From the NCBI GenBank assembly GCA_963692865.2, contig OY843592.1:1952001-2016000 (forward strand): a stretch of 64,000 nt of DNA, given 5' to 3'. Origin of the DNA: a bacterium. GTDB taxonomy: Bacteria > UBA8248. Position numbers and translations under genes: made by a program. Of this stretch, positions 4,505-19,991 are shown piece by piece; positions within the stretch are counted from its first letter, which is position 1; the number at the start of each line of letters is the position of its first letter. Under the pieces are notes generated by a model. It was given only the letters and a program-made list of their open reading frames with translations. It made no database searches and had not been told where the DNA came from.

Positions 4505-5182
4505 ATGCCGAAGCCCGATATGGCGCCCGGCGAAATCCGGGTCGCACCCTCTTTGCTCTCGTGTTCTTTCGAGAGAATGGGCGAGGAGATAGCGGCGGTG
4601 CGCGAAGCCGGGGCGGACTGGCTGCATTTCGACGTGATGGACGGGCATTTCGTGCCGAACATATCCGTGGGGCCTCTGGGCGTCGAGGCGGCCAGGCGGG
4701 CCGCGCCGGGCATGGCGCTCGACGTGCACCTGATGATCGCGGATCCGGATCGCTACGTCGAGGCGTTCGCCGATGCGGGCGCGGACATCCTGACGGTGCA
4801 CGTGGAGGCGCCGACGCACGTCCACCGGACTCTCCAGAGCATACGCGCGCGCGGTTTGGGCGTCGGGCTGACGCTGAACCCCGGAACGCCGCTTTCGGCG
4901 GTGGAGGGCCTGCTCCCGGAGGTGGACATGGTCCTCGTCATGAGCGTCAATCCGGGCTTCGGGGGCCAGAAGTTCATACCGGCTTCGCTGGAGCGGATTC
5001 GCCGTCTGAGAGGGATGATCGAGGCGGGAGGACTGTCGGTTCTGATAGAGGTCGACGGCGGCGTCACGCCGCGCAACGCGGCGGAGATACGCGCGGCGGG
5101 CGCGGAAGTACTGGTGGCCGGTTCCGCCGTGTTCGGCGCGCAAGACTACGCCGAGGCCGTACGCGGCATCAGGGGCGGATGA
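4505..5182 (+). CDS. rpe: Ribulose-phosphate 3-epimerase
   Basis: HFDVMDGHFVPN, DVHLM, MSVNPGFGGQKF, EVDGG motifs. Confidence 0.98.
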   Translation: MPKPDMAPGEIRVAPSLLSCSFERMGEEIAAVREAGADWLHFDVMDGHFVPNISVGPLGVEAARRAAPGMALDVHLMIADPDRYVEAFADAGADILTVHVEAPTHVHRTLQSIRARGLGVGLTLNPGTPLSAVEGLLPEVDMVLVMSVNPGFGGQKFIPASLERIRRLRGMIEAGGLSVLIEVDGGVTPRNAAEIRAAGAEVLVAGSAVFGAQDYAEAVRGIRGG

Positions 5183-5192
5183 GGCTTGATTC

Positions 5193-5424
5193 GGGCTGTT
5201 GAAAAAGTCCTCATGAATGAGGGTTTGACGCATCCGATGAAAGAGCAAGAAACACTCCCCCCTTGAGGGTCGGGCTTCCCGAGGGGAAAGCCCAACGGTG
5301 AAGCCGAGCGTTTTTTGCGAAGGCTAAACCGGTGGGGGGAGATTTACTCTGTGGCATGTCCCCCCACCAACTCGCCTGCGGGCTTCGCCCTTGCCTCATC
5401 GTCGGCCTTCCCGAGGAGGAAAGA
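5193..5424. repeat. Left part of the host palindromic repeat interrupted by the IS, preceded by a TIR-like end
   Basis: GGGCTGTTGAAAAA at 5193-5206; ACTCCCCCCTTGAGGGTCGG... is similar to the reverse complement of 19617-19785. Confidence 0.85.
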
Positions 5425-5538
5425 TGGGGTAATCGGGTTGGTCTGCGAACTACCGCGTGTGGCGGATGTTCCTCTGCCTTATGATTCGAGGCGAGGCCGG
5501 GATGGTCCGGTCTCTACGCGCCCGCAGGAGGAGCAGTC

Positions 5539-6579
5539 ATGAACTACTTTGCAGGACTCGACGTGTCGTTGGAGTGGACGAGTGTGTGCGTGGTGGACGC
5601 GGAGGGCGGGATCGTCCGGGAGGCGAAGGTCGCGAGCGAACCCGCGGCCCTCGTGGCGTTCTTCACCGGACTGGCCTTCGGCGTAACGCGCATCTGCCTG
5701 GAGGCGGGGCCGCTGTCACAGTGGCTCCATGACGGTCTGGCCGAGGCCGGGTTCCCGGTGGTTTGCGCCGAGACGCGGCAACTGAAGGCGGTGCTCTCGG
5801 CGACGGTGAACAAGAGCGACCGCGACGACGCGCGCGGCATCGCCCAGTTGGTTCGCGCGAACCTGATTCGCCCGGTGCACGTGAAGACGGTGTCGAGCCA
5901 GGAAAAACGCATGCTCCTCGCCAACCGCAGGTTCATGCTGAAGCAGTTGTGCGACGCCGAGGCCCACATCCGGGGCACGCTGCGCAACTTCGGGCTGAAG
6001 ATGGGCAAGGTCACCCGTCGCGGTTTGGAGGCGCGTGTAGGGTGTCTGGTCGCGGAGCGCCCGGAGTTGGCGCGCCTGGTGGCGCCGATGCTGCGGGCTC
6101 GCTCTGCGCTGCTGGCGGAATACGTCCGGCTGCACAGGATGATGCTGGAGGCGGCGCGAGCCGATCCGGTCTGCCGGCGCCTGATGACGGTTCCCGGCGT
6201 GGGTCCGGTGACGGCGCTCACCTTCCGGGCGAGCGTCGACGTGCCATCGCGTTTTGCGCGCTCGCGCTCGGTGGGCGCGCACTTCGGGCTTGTGCCTCGC
6301 AAATGGCAATCCGGAGAGGTCGACCGCACGGGAAGCATCTCCAAATGCGGCGACGCGATGATGCGCGCGGCGCTCTACGAAGCCGCCAACGTCTTGCTCG
6401 GGCGCACGACGCGGTGGTCATGGCTGAAAGCCTGGGCGATGGGTGTGGCGAAGCGTCGCGGCAAGTCGCGCGCGAAGGTTGCGCTCGCCCGCCGGCTCGG
6501 CGTCATCATGCACCGCATGTGGATGGATGGCAGTGAGTTCCGCTGGAAGCGCGACGGCGCGGATGCTTCGGCTGCCTGA
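5539..6579 (+). CDS. IS110-family DEDD transposase/recombinase
   Basis: GLDVS, LEAG, KSDRDDA (DEDD tetrad); VPGVGPVTA; QSG serine motif; ISKCGD; KVALARRL; GGAGG RBS. Confidence 0.97.
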   Translation: MNYFAGLDVSLEWTSVCVVDAEGGIVREAKVASEPAALVAFFTGLAFGVTRICLEAGPLSQWLHDGLAEAGFPVVCAETRQLKAVLSATVNKSDRDDARGIAQLVRANLIRPVHVKTVSSQEKRMLLANRRFMLKQLCDAEAHIRGTLRNFGLKMGKVTRRGLEARVGCLVAERPELARLVAPMLRARSALLAEYVRLHRMMLEAARADPVCRRLMTVPGVGPVTALTFRASVDVPSRFARSRSVGAHFGLVPRKWQSGEVDRTGSISKCGDAMMRAALYEAANVLLGRTTRWSWLKAWAMGVAKRRGKSRAKVALARRLGVIMHRMWMDGSEFRWKRDGADASAA

Positions 6580-6639
6580 GGTCGAGACACTGAAGAAGGA
6601 GGACCACAGACAAACCCTGTAGCTTCCGCCTCGGCGGGG

Positions 6640-6816
6640 GATGCTCCCGTGGGGACGAGGGACGAAGTGAGTACGCTGTCGGCCTAGCCCCGCTGCGTCG
6701 GTGACGATGCGAGGGCGCAGGAAAGATTGTTCCACTTCGTTCTCCGATCCCATCCTGTTGACGGCCCCCGGCTCGGGAGTCGATCACGAAGAGAAGCGAG
6801 ACCCCCATGGAGCGTC
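6640..6816 (+). ncRNA. Predicted bridge RNA/seekRNA of the IS
   Basis: Closing stem 6640-6654/6803-6816; two internal-loop arms carrying matches to the target (6678-6682, 6719-6726) and to the donor junction (6749-6754, 6790-6796); boundaries approximate. Confidence 0.78.
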
Positions 6817-6893
6817 ATCTGCAGCCAAAGGCGGAACAGGTCTGACAGAACCAGGGGAGAGGAACTTGACTTGCCCTACCCGATTAGAGAAGA

Positions 6894-7464
6894 CCGACCC
6901 TCAAAGGGGGAGTGGTTCCATACTGCGTGTTAATCGGTATTGCTCGCGAGGAGGGAGTGAACCTCAAGACCATCGAGGTCGAACGCGGGCGGTGTAGGGG
7001 CCGCATATCATGCGGCCCGCCGCCGGAGGGGCGAAAAGGCCGGGCCGCATGATATGTCGGACATATATGTCTGGCCTACAAAACCGTATTCCCTGCATGA
7101 CGACCGTGGGGGCGCTTCACGAAGGCCCCCACGGGAACATCCCTTTGAGAGATCAAAGTGCCCGTCATTCCGGCGAAAGCCGGAATCCATTTTCGCCTTT
7201 GTCTTTGGCCCTTCGCTTAGACGTCCTCGTTCCCGGCCGGGGAAGATACGGACACCGCCATATGTATCCACCTTATCCGTTTCGGACTCGGGCGCGGCGC
7301 CCCCTCCCGCGAGTCGGAATCAAATGCAAAAACGAAGGTAAAAATCATAAAATGGATTCCGGCTTTCGCCGGAATGACGGTGGTTGTCCCGCATTGAGGG
7401 GGTTTTTCAACAACCCCGAGGAGGGAGCGTTCGCTGCCCTTGGCAGGGCTTTTTCAACAGCCCC
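6894..7464. repeat. Repeat mosaic: right part of the IS target repeat, GTAG doublet, inverted CGTC pair, two TIR-like ends
   Basis: 6894-7056 is nearly identical to the reverse complement of about 19450-19616; CGTCATTCCGGCGAAAGCCGGAATCCA at 7163-7189 and inverse at 7353-7379; TTTTTCAACARCCCC at 7403 and 7450. Confidence 0.9.
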
Positions 7465-7490
7465 GAGAGGGCGGCCCGCTCCATTCGCGG

Positions 7491-7520
7491 TTGACACCTT
7501 GCGCATAAAATCCTTATAAG
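7491..7520 (+). promoter_or_regulatory. Putative sigma70 promoter of the ffh operon
   Basis: TTGACA 7491-7496, 18 nt spacer, TATAAG 7515-7520. Confidence 0.5.
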
Positions 7521-7592
7521 TTTGGTTTCCTCACCCGGCGTTGCGGGTGGAAAATCGAAAACATATTGAATATCAATCAGTTGGGGTGCCCG

Positions 7593-8927
7593 ATGTTTGA
7601 CGGCTTGAAAGAGCGCCTGGGCGGAATCTTCAAGGATTTGAGAAGCCGGGGCGTTTTGGGTGAAAAAGAGGTCGATTCCGCGCTTCGCGAGATTCGCCTG
7701 GCCCTGCTCGAAGCCGACGTGAACTTCCGGGTCGCCAAGGATCTGGTGGCGAAAATCCGCGAAGATCTCCTCGGCGTCGAGCGCGTCGCGCACCTCGATC
7801 CCTCTCAACAGGTCATCAAGGCGGTCCAGGGGCGTCTCATCGAACTCATGGGGGCGAAGAACGCGCCGCTCGAGCGCGCCTCGAGCGGCGTCACCACCGT
7901 GATGCTCGTCGGTCTGCAGGGTTCGGGAAAGACGACGACGGCCGGCAAGATCGCCCTGAAATTAAAGAGCAAGGGACTGCGCGTTCTTCTCGTGCCCGCG
8001 GACGTGGCGCGGCCCGCCGCCATCGCCCAGCTCAAGCGGCTGGCCGAGCAGACGGGCGCGGAAGCGTTCGATTCAGAAGGAATGCCGGACCCCGTGGAGA
8101 TCGTCCGTCGGGCCGGCGAAAGAGCCCGGATCGAGCATTTCGATTACTGCATCGTGGACAGCGCGGGCAGGCTGCACGTCGACGACGCCCTGATGGACGA
8201 GTTGAAACGGATGAAAGAAGCGGCGCGGCCCGAGGAGGTGCTCCTGGTCGCGGACGCCATGACGGGCCAGGAAGCGGTGAACTTAGGCGCCGCGTTTTCC
8301 GAGCGCATCGGCATCACGGGCGTCGTGCTGACGAAGCTGGACGGCGACGCCAGGGGCGGCGGCGCCCTCTCGCTGCGCTCGGTGACGGGCGTGCCCGTCA
8401 AACTGGTCGGCGTGGGCGAGAAGCTCGACGCGATCGAGGAGTTTCACCCCGAGCGAATGGCTTCGCGGGTTCTGGGCATGGGAGACGTCATGTCCCTCAT
8501 CGAGAAGGCCGAGGCCGCCATCTCGGCGGATGACGCGAAGTCCATGGTGGAGTCCCTCGGCAAGGGTTCGTTCACCCTCGCGACGATGAAGGAGCAGATT
8601 CTCCAGATGCGGAAGATGGGTTCGATGGGCGACGTCTTGTCCATGATACCGGGGCTGGGAAGCCGGATGCCCGACGTGGATATCGACGAGACCGAACTCT
8701 CGCGCACGGTGGCCATCATCGATTCGATGACGCCCGCCGAGCGCGCGAAGCCCGAGATCATCAAGGGCAGCCGCAGGAAGCGCATCGCCGCCGGTAGCGG
8801 AACCCGGGTGCAGGACGTGAACCGGCTGCTCAAGCAGTTCGCGCAGACACAGAAACTGATGAGGCAATTTTCAAAGGGCGGGAAGAAAAAACAGATGCAG
8901 AGAATGCGTCAAATGCTTAATTTCTAG
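7593..8927 (+). CDS. ffh: Signal recognition particle protein
   Basis: [31 protein letters not shown]; Met-rich M domain with [11 protein letters not shown]. Confidence 0.98.
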
Positions 8928-19234: not shown

Positions 19235-19991
19235 GGGGTTGTTGAAAAAGCCCCGTCGACATCGCCTTTACCCCTCTGACAAGGGGGGACGGGGGGGTTG
19301 CAGTGACAACTCCGAGGGGGTGTTGAAAAAGTCCTGATTTCTAGATTTATCGTATATAACCGACCGACGAGAGAGGAAAACCACTCCCCCCTTGAGGGGG
19401 TAGTTGAAAAACCTATCCCTCTCGCATCAACCACGTTTTACCCGTAGGGGTCGCATATCATGCGACCCGGCCTTTTCGCCTCTCCGGCGGCGGGCCGCAT
19501 GATATGCGGCCCCTACACCGCCCGTGTTCGACCTCGATGGTCTTGAAATTCACTCCCTCCTCGCGAGCAATACCGATTAACACGCAGTATGGAACCACTC
19601 CCCCCTTGAGGGTCGGTCTTTCCGCCTCGGGAAGACCGACGGCAAGACGAGGACGAAGCCCGAAGTCGCGCCGGTGGGGGGAGTTTTTTATTTTAGAATC
19701 GTTCCCCCCACCGAATCGGCCTTCGCACAAACCGCTCGGCCTCTTCGTCGGGCTTTCCCCTCGGGGAGCCCGACCCTCAAAGGGGCTGTTGAAAAACCCG
19801 GAGAGAGACAGTTTGTTTGTAGGGGCCGCATATCATGCGGCCCGCCTTGTGGAGGCGAAAATCAGGGCCGCATGATATGCGGCCCCTACAATGCCATCGC
19901 GTTTTGCGTAGCAGGACAGACACGGAGACCTGTCCCTACGGGATCATCACGTCGCCGACCGAGGGGATACATGGCCTTTTTCAACAATCCC
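19235..19991. repeat. Large repeat mosaic including the intact (empty) IS target repeat
   Basis: TIR-like ends near 19235, 19316, 19396, 19782 and inverse at 19977-19991; GTAG doublets 19444-19516 and 19819-19889; palindromic element 19597-19785. Confidence 0.9.

What the first reader, a model, noticed from the sequence alone, without database searches (positions are those of the whole stretch)
5421..6893. Complete IS110/IS1111-type element with filled and empty target sites both in the window
Seen: the left junction reads GAGGAGGA-AAGA-TGGGG and the right junction TTAGAG-AAGA-CCGACCCTCAA. Joining the flanks rebuilds GTCGG.CTTCCCGAGG.GGAAAGACCGACCCTCAA, which occurs uninterrupted on the minus strand around 19611-19640. 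About 165 bp of downstream sequence is nearly identical at the two sites. Sub-terminal 12-bp IRs (11/12 match) and a non-coding region 3' of the transposase are present, and the DEDD and SG residues are intact. Known: these are hallmarks of the IS1111 subgroup, and some IS110-family members target REP-like palindromes. Inference: a probably active element that uses a host repeat hairpin as a safe harbour, with ends readable to within the AAGA core.
Basis: partly seen in the sequence, partly recalled or inferred. Interest (0 to 1): 0.8.

Follow-up and report, generated by a model that had tools for sequence, protein, structure and literature searches.

The report
RNA-guided insertion sequence in repeat hairpin
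This is an intact, probably active IS1111-type insertion sequence that lands in a host repeat hairpin and appears to choose that site with a guide RNA encoded behind its transposase gene; it is a new member of a well-known kind.

Summary
A 1,469-bp element (window 5424-6892, counting one AG core) sits between rpe and ffh. The genome holds six copies that are 100% identical. The 346-aa ORF is an IS110-family DEDD transposase. The sub-terminal inverted repeats match 11 of 12. The non-coding region is 311 nt downstream against 115 nt upstream. Five of six copies have the same repeat hairpin on their left and four have it on both sides. An uninterrupted paralogous hairpin lies at 19612-19640 on the minus strand. 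Orthologous rpe-ffh intervals in two congeners carry uninterrupted hairpins.

New here: the 3' non-coding region folds into a bridge/seekRNA-like structure with compensatory changes. The two strands of its internal loop match the right and left target flanks. Across 11 guide variants these loops change together with the flanks: 123 identities against 74.2±6.7 for shuffled pairings, 0 of 100,000 shuffles as high. The shared core is AG, not AAGA.

Unexplained: three copies share an exact 148-nt left flank that looks imported into two of them. Gene conversion or a non-canonical transfer could explain it.

Verdict: new member of a known kind, of moderate interest.

The parts
5253..5421 (+). Left flank: the left part of a MITE-like repeat. 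It has a terminal inverted repeat, a left hairpin, an interior, and the 5' arm and loop of the right hairpin. The last 7 nt (5415-5421, GGAGGAA) are the left target half.
   Evidence: The 148 nt next to the element are identical in copies c1, c2 and c4. Other copies of the repeat in the genome are 75-92% alike.
5422..5423 (+). Core dinucleotide AG, left copy.
   Evidence: AG is the only sequence shared by both junctions in all variants.
5424..5538 (+). Left end (115 nt non-coding), including the sub-terminal inverted repeat at 5430-5441.
   Evidence: The same start, ATGGGG, is seen in variants from other genomes.
5539..6579 (+). Transposase/recombinase gene, 346 aa. DEDD residues are D8, E55, D94 and D97. 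S258-G259 lie in a GL-P----SG motif.
   Evidence: ORF; Pfam PF01548 and PF02371; NF033542, 237 bits; alignment to ISCro4 and IS621 transposases; positions.
6639..6820 (+). Predicted bridge/seek RNA core, about 182 nt. Stems: P1 6639-6643 with 6816-6820; P2 6651-6654 with 6803-6806; P3 6656-6671 with 6731-6746; P4 hairpin 6687-6716.
   Evidence: RNAalifold on 14 non-coding regions. Pair counts: 15 pairs with changes on both sides against 7.3±2.0 in shuffles (0 of 500 as high), and 89% of cells paired against 40-57% for slid partners. Coordinates.
6672..6686 (+). 5' strand of the target-binding internal loop. Positions 6678-6683 are complementary to right-flank positions 1-6 (GCCGAC) and 6684-6685 to the core.
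   Evidence: Own-flank identity averages 6.6 of 8 against 4.25 for other elements' flanks.
6717..6730 (+). 3' strand of the target-binding loop. Positions 6717-6723 have the same sense as the left target half, 6724-6725 are the core AG, and 6726-6727 (AT) equal the first two bases of the left end.
   Evidence: Own-flank identity averages 4.5 of 7 against 2.05 for other flanks. The AG-AT stretch never varies among the 7 close variants.
6747..6802 (+). Multiloop with candidate donor-binding segments. 6747-6755 is complementary to core G plus the start of the left end. 6790-6796 is identical to the last 7 nt of the right end plus core. A small hairpin lies between them.
   Evidence: Support is weak. 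One position shows C-G in L010, U-A in L009 and L011, and U-G in G000. The right-end match never varies.
6875..6886 (+). Right sub-terminal inverted repeat. The right end finishes at 6890.
   Evidence: 11 of 12 against 5430-5441.
6891..6892 (+). Core dinucleotide AG, right copy.
6893..6914 (+). Right flank: right target half ACCGAC (6893-6898), the 3' arm of the hairpin, and the terminal repeat of the MITE-like element.
   Evidence: It matches the guide at 5 of 6 positions.
6897..7056 (+). Downstream block shared with the paralogous empty site.
   Evidence: 154 of 160 positions identical to minus-strand 19613-19454.
19612..19640 (-). Uninterrupted paralogous hairpin (the 'empty site'), with AG at 19619-19618. 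It has 2 mismatches to the preferred 15-mer.

Best explanation
The finding is a complete IS1111-type member of the IS110 family. The relatives' records are labelled Nitrospinota MAGs. The element encodes a DEDD recombinase and, in its 311-nt 3' non-coding region, a structured RNA of about 180 nt of the bridge/seekRNA kind.

An internal loop of that RNA carries two short guides:
- The 5' strand (6678-6685) is complementary to the top strand of core plus right flank (AG-GCCGAC).
- The 3' strand (6717-6727) has the same sense as left flank plus core plus the first two bases of the element (GGAA-AG-AT), so it can pair with the bottom strand.

Together they specify the 15-mer GGAGGAA-AG-GCCGAC. In this genome that sequence exists only in the 3' arm of one hairpin variant of a MITE-like repeat.

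Shown here: the anatomy, the six identical copies, the flanks, the empty orthologous and paralogous sites, the conserved RNA fold, and the co-variation of loop sequences with flanks.

Inferred from the family (papers PMC11187229 and PMC11208160): the element excises as a circle joined RE-AG-LE and is inserted at the AG of the target by RNA-guided recombination without a target duplication. The donor-binding part is assigned to a multiloop at 6747-6802. That assignment is only tentative.
For: - Protein family: Pfam PF01548 and PF02371; NF033542 'IS110 family RNA-guided transposase' at 237 bits against a cut-off of 140; PDB matches to the ISCro4 and IS621 transposases at E about 1e-14.
- Copies: six copies 100% identical over 1,472 nt. 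They are the only six matches to that family in the genome.
- Guide-to-flank match per copy (left of 7, right of 6): c2, c3 and c4 score 6 and 6; c1 scores 6 and 5; c5, outside the repeat, scores 4 and 4; c6 scores 5 and 2.
- Empty sites: one paralogous site in the window. Orthologous rpe-ffh intervals in G020 and G008 carry uninterrupted hairpins. None of the 18 of 21 relatives' loci that hold both anchors has the element there.
- RNA structure: 37 consensus pairs, 15 with changes on both sides against 7.3±2.0 in shuffles (0 of 500 as high). 89% of cells are paired against 40-57% with slid partners.
- Guide and flank co-variation over 11 distinct guide sets: 123 identities to own flanks against 74.2±6.7 for shuffled pairings (maximum 111; 0 of 100,000 as high).
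- Loop variability among 7 variants that are 85-96% identical: 15 of 18 guide columns vary against 38 of 165 in the rest of the RNA. The core and the following AT never vary.
- Guide order: the top-strand match lies 5' of the bottom-strand match and the two overlap at the core. This is as reported for IS1111-type seekRNAs (PMC11187229 section 9). A donor-binding multiloop is as noted for IS1111 orthologues (PMC11208160 passages).
Against: - No RNA, circle junction or transposition event was observed. The only runs that hold the stretch are kept as contigs.
- The single-sequence fold is not better than shuffles (z = -1.15).
- No Rfam family matched the region at E up to 1, apart from a chance SAM-VI hit.
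- One of the 11 guide sets tested does not match its flanks (L009 = L034; 4 of 8 and 0 of 7). L033 carries the L008 guide set in unrelated flanks.
- The right-flank guide pairs one base out of register in L010 and L011 relative to the others (reading).
- Donor-loop support rests on one variable position.
- The guide blocks were noticed as variable before their variability was counted, so that count is partly circular.
Confidence: 0.88

Rival explanations
1. The recombinase recognises the repeat hairpin directly, by protein-DNA or DNA-structure recognition. The matches between the 3' non-coding region and the flanks are then incidental.
For: The target is a hairpin-forming repeat. In this genome alone, flank and guide cannot be separated because all six copies are identical.
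Against: Relatives with different loop sequences sit in different, mostly non-hairpin sequences that match their own loops. 0 of 100,000 shuffles reach the observed score. Copy c5 lies in a non-repeat site that keeps 4 of 7 and 4 of 6 guide matches.
Confidence: 0.04
2. The copies did not all arise by the element's own transposition. Some spread as passengers of the MITE-like repeat, mobilised by another transposase, or by homologous recombination between repeat copies.
For: Copies c1, c2 and c4 share an exact 148-149-nt left flank, while other repeat copies are at most 92% alike. At the c2 locus, 9 of 11 relatives have no repeat at all.
Against: - The outer left terminal repeat differs among c1, c2 and c4. 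The right flank of c1 differs from c2 and c4 from the first base after the core. So the shared unit ends exactly at the element's right end and not at the MITE end.
- c3, c5 and c6 have unrelated or diverged flanks with identical element ends.
Confidence: 0.1
3. The element is an inactive relic whose copies are kept identical by gene conversion.
For: No circle junction and no polymorphic empty site was seen. There is no perfect empty 15-mer target left in the genome.
Against: - All six ORFs are intact and identical.
- The catalytic residues and both ends are intact.
- The element is absent from the orthologous loci examined in congeners, so the insertions are recent.
Confidence: 0.07

Closest known systems
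ISPa11, ISEc11 and ISKpn4: IS1111-family elements with a demonstrated seekRNA (Siddiquee et al. 2024, PMC11187229; sections 6, 9 and 13 read)
   Same: - Transposase within the 330-350 aa range.
- GL-P----SG motif.
- Sub-terminal inverted repeats.
- Long non-coding region downstream of tnp.
- Two short guide segments, the top-strand match 5' of the bottom-strand match, overlapping at the core.
- That ISPa11 targets REP sequences is recalled; the sections read mention only its target logo.
   Different: - The host phylum and the target sequence differ.
- No RNA or transposition data exist for this element.
ISPpu9 and ISPpu10 of Pseudomonas putida KT2440 (PMC12288879; abstract and section 15 read)
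   Same: - IS110-family elements inserted in repetitive extragenic palindromes.
- Recombination occurs at an AG dinucleotide present at both boundaries.
- Several copies per genome.
- ISPpu9 moves adjacent DNA (ssr9) in alternative circles.
   Different: - In ISPpu9 the extra module lies downstream and has its own end-like boxes.
- Here the shared extra DNA lies upstream, has no end-like sequence, and is bounded by a hairpin that looks like the left target half.
IS621 with its bridge RNA (Durrant et al. 2024, PMC11208160, passages read; structures 8wt6 and others)
   Same: - DEDD plus Tnp-domain recombinase.
- A structured RNA of about 180 nt with an internal target-binding loop whose two strands read the two target halves on opposite DNA strands.
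- A core dinucleotide.
- That IS621 targets REP sequences is recalled.
   Different: - IS621 belongs to the IS110 group. Its RNA lies upstream of the gene, its inverted repeats are short, and its donor loop is a simple internal loop.
- Only the C-terminal domain aligns significantly (E 3e-14, residues 174-335).
IS110-family transposases on Azospirillum and Bradyrhizobium plasmids
   Same: These are the best full-length matches among cultured organisms: 58-61% amino-acid identity over 97-100% of the protein. Related alphaproteobacterial loci share the same 3' RNA architecture and the AGAGAAG right tip.
   Different: Identity is under 62%. The guides and targets differ.

Membership tests
IS110 family | DEDD (RuvC-like) N-terminal domain plus a C-terminal Transposase_20 domain | tested here: met
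   PF01548 at E 7e-13 and PF02371 at E 3e-21. NF033542 at 237 bits against a cut-off of 140. D8, E55, D94 and D97 align to the acidic residues of ISCro4.
IS110 family | Conserved S/T-G in a G--P----SG motif of the C-terminal domain | tested here: met
   GLVPRKWQSG, with S258 and G259. It aligns to RRYESG of ISCro4. The motif definition comes from PMC11187229 section 6.
IS110 family | Site-specific insertion with no target duplication beyond a short core shared by donor and target | tested here: met
   AG lies at both junctions. Flanks joined over one AG give the uninterrupted hairpin seen in paralogous and orthologous sites.
IS1111 group | Sub-terminal inverted repeats of 7-17 bp set back from the tips | tested here: met
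   5430-5441 against 6875-6886 match 11 of 12. They lie 6 nt and 4 nt inside the ends. The range is quoted from PMC11208160.
IS1111 group | Longer non-coding region downstream of tnp | tested here: met
   311 nt (6580-6890) downstream against 115 nt (5424-5538) upstream.
IS1111 group | Transposase of 330-350 aa that clusters with IS1111 relatives in a tree | tested here: inconclusive
   The length of 346 aa fits.
Bridge/seek-RNA-guided recombinases | Structured RNA in the long non-coding end, with loop strands complementary to both strands of the target | tested here: met
   Conserved fold with compensatory changes. Loop and flank co-vary, with 0 of 100,000 shuffles as high. The evidence is from sequence only.
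Bridge/seek-RNA-guided recombinases | Donor-binding loop complementary to the joined element ends | tested here: inconclusive
   Candidates lie at 6747-6755 and 6790-6796 in a multiloop. Only one informative variable position was found.
Bridge/seek-RNA-guided recombinases | The RNA is expressed and bound by the recombinase, and a circular RE-core-LE intermediate forms | not testable with these tools
   Only contigs of public runs were on hand, so no test of expression or of the circle was possible.

The most novel reading that the evidence does not exclude
Three of the six copies (c1, the window copy; c2; c4) carry the same 148 nt of left flank, and in two of them this flank appears imported together with the element.

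- Left joint: the left hairpin's 5' arm pairs perfectly with the start of the shared segment only in c4. In c1 and c2 the arm is of another variant and mismatched. This places the left joint in the hairpin loop, whose 3' end looks like a left target half followed by AG.
- Right joint: it falls exactly at the element's right end.

The boldest reading is that this is a natural footprint of a non-canonical, target-guide-directed transfer. An upstream sequence that looks like the left target half is taken as the left boundary, so the element carries host DNA into a new repeat copy. This would correspond to the TBL-RNA-driven 'direct transfer' of junctions proposed in vitro in a 2025 preprint (10.1101/2025.10.25.684509, section 8 read). 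If so, IS1111-type elements could transduce adjacent host sequence and remodel repeat families.

The ordinary alternative is normal insertion followed by gene conversion leftwards from the identical element into the roughly 40-nt conserved hairpin and terminal repeat.
Probability: 0.2. Interest if true: 0.65.

Novelty: new member of a known kind. Interest (0 to 1): 0.4.

Why it matters
- It adds an intact, multi-copy IS1111-type element from a little-studied, uncultured lineage.
- It comes with a natural reprogramming series. Within one genus, variants 85-96% identical carry six different guide pairs, and five of them sit in flanks that match their guides. This is ready-made comparative material for learning which loop positions set specificity and register in IS1111-type bridge RNAs, which are less studied than IS621.
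- It shows that the repeat 'safe harbour' is a consequence of a 15-nt guide match. No perfect empty site is left in the genome.
- The shared 148-nt flank is a concrete, testable case for asking whether these recombinases can move adjacent host DNA.

Tried and rejected
- Rfam: no family matched 5000-7600 at E up to 1, apart from a SAM-VI hit at 22 bits against a gathering score of 57.5. That hit lies on a palindromic repeat at 7004-7058 and was rejected as chance.
- Single-sequence fold of the 3' non-coding region: z = -1.15, uninformative. The comparative fold was used instead.
- CCCCAT at 6803-6808 as the guide for the left end: rejected, because its C run pairs with GGGG at 6651-6654 in the consensus structure.
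- Sigma-70 scan: no promoter-like site in 5300-7100. A conserved TTGAC lies 21 nt from the right tip (10 of 14 aligned sequences, read). It could be the -35 of a junction promoter, but the matching -10 would be poor, so this was left as a remark.
- Public runs: all 23 listed runs are kept as contigs. Four were laid. No contig joins the right end to the left end and none skips the element. Contigs drop rare forms, so this says nothing about circles. A 263-nt contig with 6 differences in one metatranscriptome run (X22) covers 6166-6419. It belongs to a relative and does not show expression of this copy.
- Model in which the flank plus the element inserted as one unit into a solo 52-nt hairpin: solo hairpins exist at 3 loci. 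However, the c2 left and right halves do not pair with each other, and the right halves of c2 and c4 are of the two-hairpin type. The model is not supported.
- Excision circle bounded by the left hairpin in direct orientation: rejected. It predicts repeat interior to the right of the element, and that is not seen.
- Orthologue of the c4 locus: the flank is repetitive and no orthologue was found.
- Metagenome scan with the 18-nt left-end tip: 11 loci. The dinucleotides in front of the tip vary. None of the loci matched the 3' non-coding-region profile at E up to 0.001. They are too distant to help.
- Similarity of the G017 flank to the G000 flank was first read as hitchhiking across species. 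That interior subfamily also occurs without the element in G000, so the reading was dropped.
- ISfinder cannot be searched with these tools.
- Supplements of the papers were not opened. Supplementary Table 5 of PMC11208160 and the supplementary figures of PMC11187229 may already list close relatives or their predicted RNAs.
Full report
OBSERVATION

The left junction reads ...GGAGGAA-AG-ATGGGG, with AG at 5422-5423. The right junction reads ...TTAGAGA-AG-ACCGAC, with AG at 6891-6892. Between them lies a 346-aa ORF at 5539-6579. It is preceded by 115 nt and followed by 311 nt of non-coding sequence. The sub-terminal repeats 5430-5441 and 6875-6886 match at 11 of 12 positions.

The uninterrupted hairpin is on the minus strand at 19640-19612. 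Downstream of it, 154 of 160 positions equal window 6897-7056. Upstream only 131 of 165 agree.

The ORF hits PF01548 and PF02371. It also hits NCBIfam NF033542, 'IS110 family RNA-guided transposase', at 237 bits against a cut-off of 140. Its D8, E55, D94 and D97 and its S258-G259 align with the corresponding residues of the ISCro4 transposase. The neighbours are rpe (TIGR01163) and ffh (TIGR00959).

COPIES AND FLANKS

The genome (4.15 Mb, 8 contigs) holds six copies that are 100% identical over 1,472 nt. These are its only six matches to the IS110 family model.

Flanks, oriented with the element:
- c2, c3 and c4 have GGAGGAA-AG on the left and GCCGAC followed by the repeat's terminal sequence on the right.
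- c1, the window copy, has ACCGAC on the right.
- c6 has the repeat on the left but an unrelated right flank.
- c5 lies outside the repeat in a near-cognate site (4 of 7 and 4 of 6 guide matches).

The 15-mer GGAGGAA-AG-GCCGAC has no perfect empty occurrence left in the genome. Four sites have one mismatch and 23 have two, and the window's empty site is one of the 23.

ORTHOLOGOUS EMPTY SITES

The rpe gene was found in 21 of 22 congeners. In 18 of the 21 fetched loci both rpe and ffh anchors are present. The interval between them is 90-1,428 bp, against 2,383 bp here. No relative has the element at this locus. The congeneric copies listed lie at other coordinates.

Two congeners carry the same repeat at the same spot with an uninterrupted right hairpin:
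- G020 reads GGAT-AG-ACCGAC.
- G008 reads GGAA-AG-GCCGAC, which is a perfect target.

At the c2 locus, 9 of 11 relatives have the two flanking conserved blocks about 20-50 bp apart, against 2,067 bp in this genome.

CORE

Variants of the element occur in five congeners (G005, G013, G014, G017, G018). They are 85-96% identical over about 1,450 nt or more. Five further genomes in that search gave only 28-57-nt chance-level matches. The G013 and G014 copies have GAG-ATGGG on the left. The sequence common to both junctions is therefore AG. The extra A in this genome is the last base of the left target half.

THE GUIDE RNA

I aligned the 3' non-coding regions of seven close variants. Two short hypervariable blocks stand in an otherwise conserved sequence. 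The same architecture is recognisable in more distant loci from alphaproteobacterial records (42-79% protein identity).

A 14-sequence alignment (A1) gives a consensus structure with these parts:
- a closing stem P1 (6639-6643 with 6816-6820);
- P2 (6651-6654 with 6803-6806);
- a long stem P3 (6656-6671 with 6731-6746);
- an internal loop;
- a terminal hairpin P4 (6687-6716).

Of 37 pairs, 15 show changes on both sides, against 7.3±2.0 in column shuffles (0 of 500 as high). 89% of cells pair, against 40-57% when partners are slid by 1-3 columns.

The two hypervariable blocks are the two strands of the internal loop. The 5' strand is complementary to core plus right flank. The 3' strand is identical to left flank plus core plus AT, and AT is the first two bases of the element.

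I tested 11 distinct guide sets. One row was kept per distinct guide pair. L007 and L048 were dropped as duplicates of L001 and L054. L075 was dropped because its left end was not found. Results:
- The right-flank guide matches its own flank at a mean of 6.6 of 8 positions, against 4.25 for other elements' flanks.
- The left-flank guide matches at a mean of 4.5 of 7, against 2.05.
- The summed own score is 123, against 74.2±6.7 for shuffled pairings (maximum 111; 0 of 100,000 as high).

One set (L009, the same element as L034) does not fit its flanks: 4 of 8 and 0 of 7. L033 carries the L008 guides in unrelated flanks. L010 and L011 pair one base out of register on the right side (reading).

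Among the seven close variants, 15 of 18 guide columns vary against 38 of 165 elsewhere in the RNA. The AG-AT that follows the left guide never varies. The blocks were noticed by their variability, so this last count is partly circular.

The order of the guides agrees with what Siddiquee et al. report for IS1111-type seekRNAs (PMC11187229 section 9). The top-strand match lies 5' of the bottom-strand match and the two overlap at the core. The P3-loop-P4 module of 91 nt is in the size range of their 82-96-nt seekRNAs.

DONOR SIDE

The stretch between P3 and P2 forms a multiloop. It contains ATCCCATCC (6747-6755), complementary to core G plus the start of the left end. It also contains AGAGAAG (6790-6796), identical to the right tip plus core. 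One position behaves as a pair would: C-G in L010, U-A in L009 and L011, and U-G here. Otherwise the ends hardly vary. The assignment is therefore an inference. It is consistent with the remark in PMC11208160 that many IS1111 orthologues hold donor-binding nucleotides in a multiloop.

WHAT WAS NOT SEEN

No RNA and no circle were seen. The runs that hold the stretch are available only as contigs. The element forms one 1,476-nt unitig, and no contig joins its ends or skips it. Rfam has no matching family.

THE SHARED LEFT FLANK

Copies c1, c2 and c4 share 148-149 nt of exactly identical left flank. The best other copies of that repeat are 75-92% alike.

The identity stops inside the left hairpin of the repeat. 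Beyond it the terminal repeat is of different variants, and the outer flanks are unrelated. On the right, c1 differs from c2 and c4 from the first base after the core. So the shared unit ends exactly at the element's right end.

The left hairpin's 5' arm pairs perfectly with the first bases of the shared segment only in c4. In c1 and c2 it is mismatched. The G020 orthologue of the c1 locus has a matched pair of the other type. In the same way, the imported 5' arm of c1's right hairpin is mismatched with its own 3' arm. I read this as the segment being native to c4 and imported into c1 and c2. The left joint would lie in the 16-nt hairpin loop, which ends in a sequence like the left target half plus AG.

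Two explanations remain:
1. Normal insertion, then gene conversion or gap repair from another copy. That repair would be anchored in the identical element on one side and in the roughly 40-nt conserved hairpin and terminal repeat on the other.
2. A transfer in which the upstream look-alike of the left target half served as the left boundary. This would be akin to the junction 'direct transfer' driven by target-loop RNA in a 2025 preprint (10.1101/2025.10.25.684509, abstract and section 8 read). It would also be loosely akin to the modular circles of ISPpu9 (PMC12288879 section 15).

I cannot separate the two and give the second about 0.2. The left half used to rebuild the target at the window copy is probably not the original left half of that site.

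COMPARISON AND VERDICT

In anatomy, and by inference in mechanism, this is an IS1111-type, RNA-guided IS110-family element. The best matches among cultured organisms are plasmid-borne IS110-family transposases of Azospirillum and Bradyrhizobium at 58-61% identity. It is therefore very likely an unnamed IS. ISfinder could not be consulted, and no tree with named references was built.

REP or MITE targeting, the AG core and the 3' guide RNA are all known for the family. The finding is real, well read by the first stage, and ordinary in kind. Its added value is the natural series of reprogrammed guides within one genus, and the unexplained flank sharing.

Noticed in passing
window 5253-5421, 6893-6914 and 19612-19800 (-); genome-wide: The host repeat is modular. 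A roughly 130-160-nt MITE-like family (201 strand-wise pairs of its two terminal 9-mers less than 400 nt apart) exists with or without a roughly 30-nt hairpin module at either end. The hairpin also occurs alone as a 52-nt palindromic element at 3 loci. In two-hairpin copies both hairpins are in the same orientation.
   Followed up: partly
window 6990-7075 and 19450-19560 (-), 19830-19900 (-): A second repeat family of long palindromes occurs around the element and at many genome sites. It causes the weak chance SAM-VI Rfam hit at 7004-7058 and very high contig depth.
   Followed up: no
rpe-ffh interval, loci L082-L101: The interval between rpe and ffh ranges from 90 to 1,428 bp among 18 congeners and is filled with different nested repeats. 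It is a hot spot for repeat insertion.
   Followed up: partly
L006:1050-3117 (copy c2 locus): About 2 kb of nested repeats plus the element sit where 9 of 11 relatives have about 20-50 bp. The cluster is bounded by a direct repeat CTTACG and by ends of a third repeat type with TTGAAAAA / TTTTTCAA termini.
   Followed up: no
L017 (G013:C2, right flank of an element copy): The right flank of one G013 copy is a tandem array of a 7-nt unit that resembles that variant's right target half. Its left flank is unrelated to the other three G013 copies.
   Followed up: no
L009 = L034 and L033: Two element copies sit in flanks that do not match their own guide loops. They may be immobilised copies, rearranged flanks, or guides that changed after insertion.
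   Followed up: no
genome C1:3895393-3896864 (copy c6): This copy has the repeat on its left, but its right end abuts the tip of the palindromic repeat family instead of the hairpin's 3' arm (2 of 6 guide matches). That suggests an adjacent deletion or rearrangement at the right junction.
   Followed up: no
L130-L140 (metagenome contigs): The 18-nt left tip of the element occurs unchanged in 11 metagenome contigs. The dinucleotides in front of it differ (AG, GC, CT, GA, TG, AT, CG), and there is no detectable similarity to this 3' non-coding region. The tip is conserved far beyond this lineage.
   Followed up: partly
window 6866-6870: A TTGAC motif 21 nt from the right tip is kept in 10 of 14 aligned elements. 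It could be the -35 of a promoter completed at the circle junction, but no good -10 follows.
   Followed up: no
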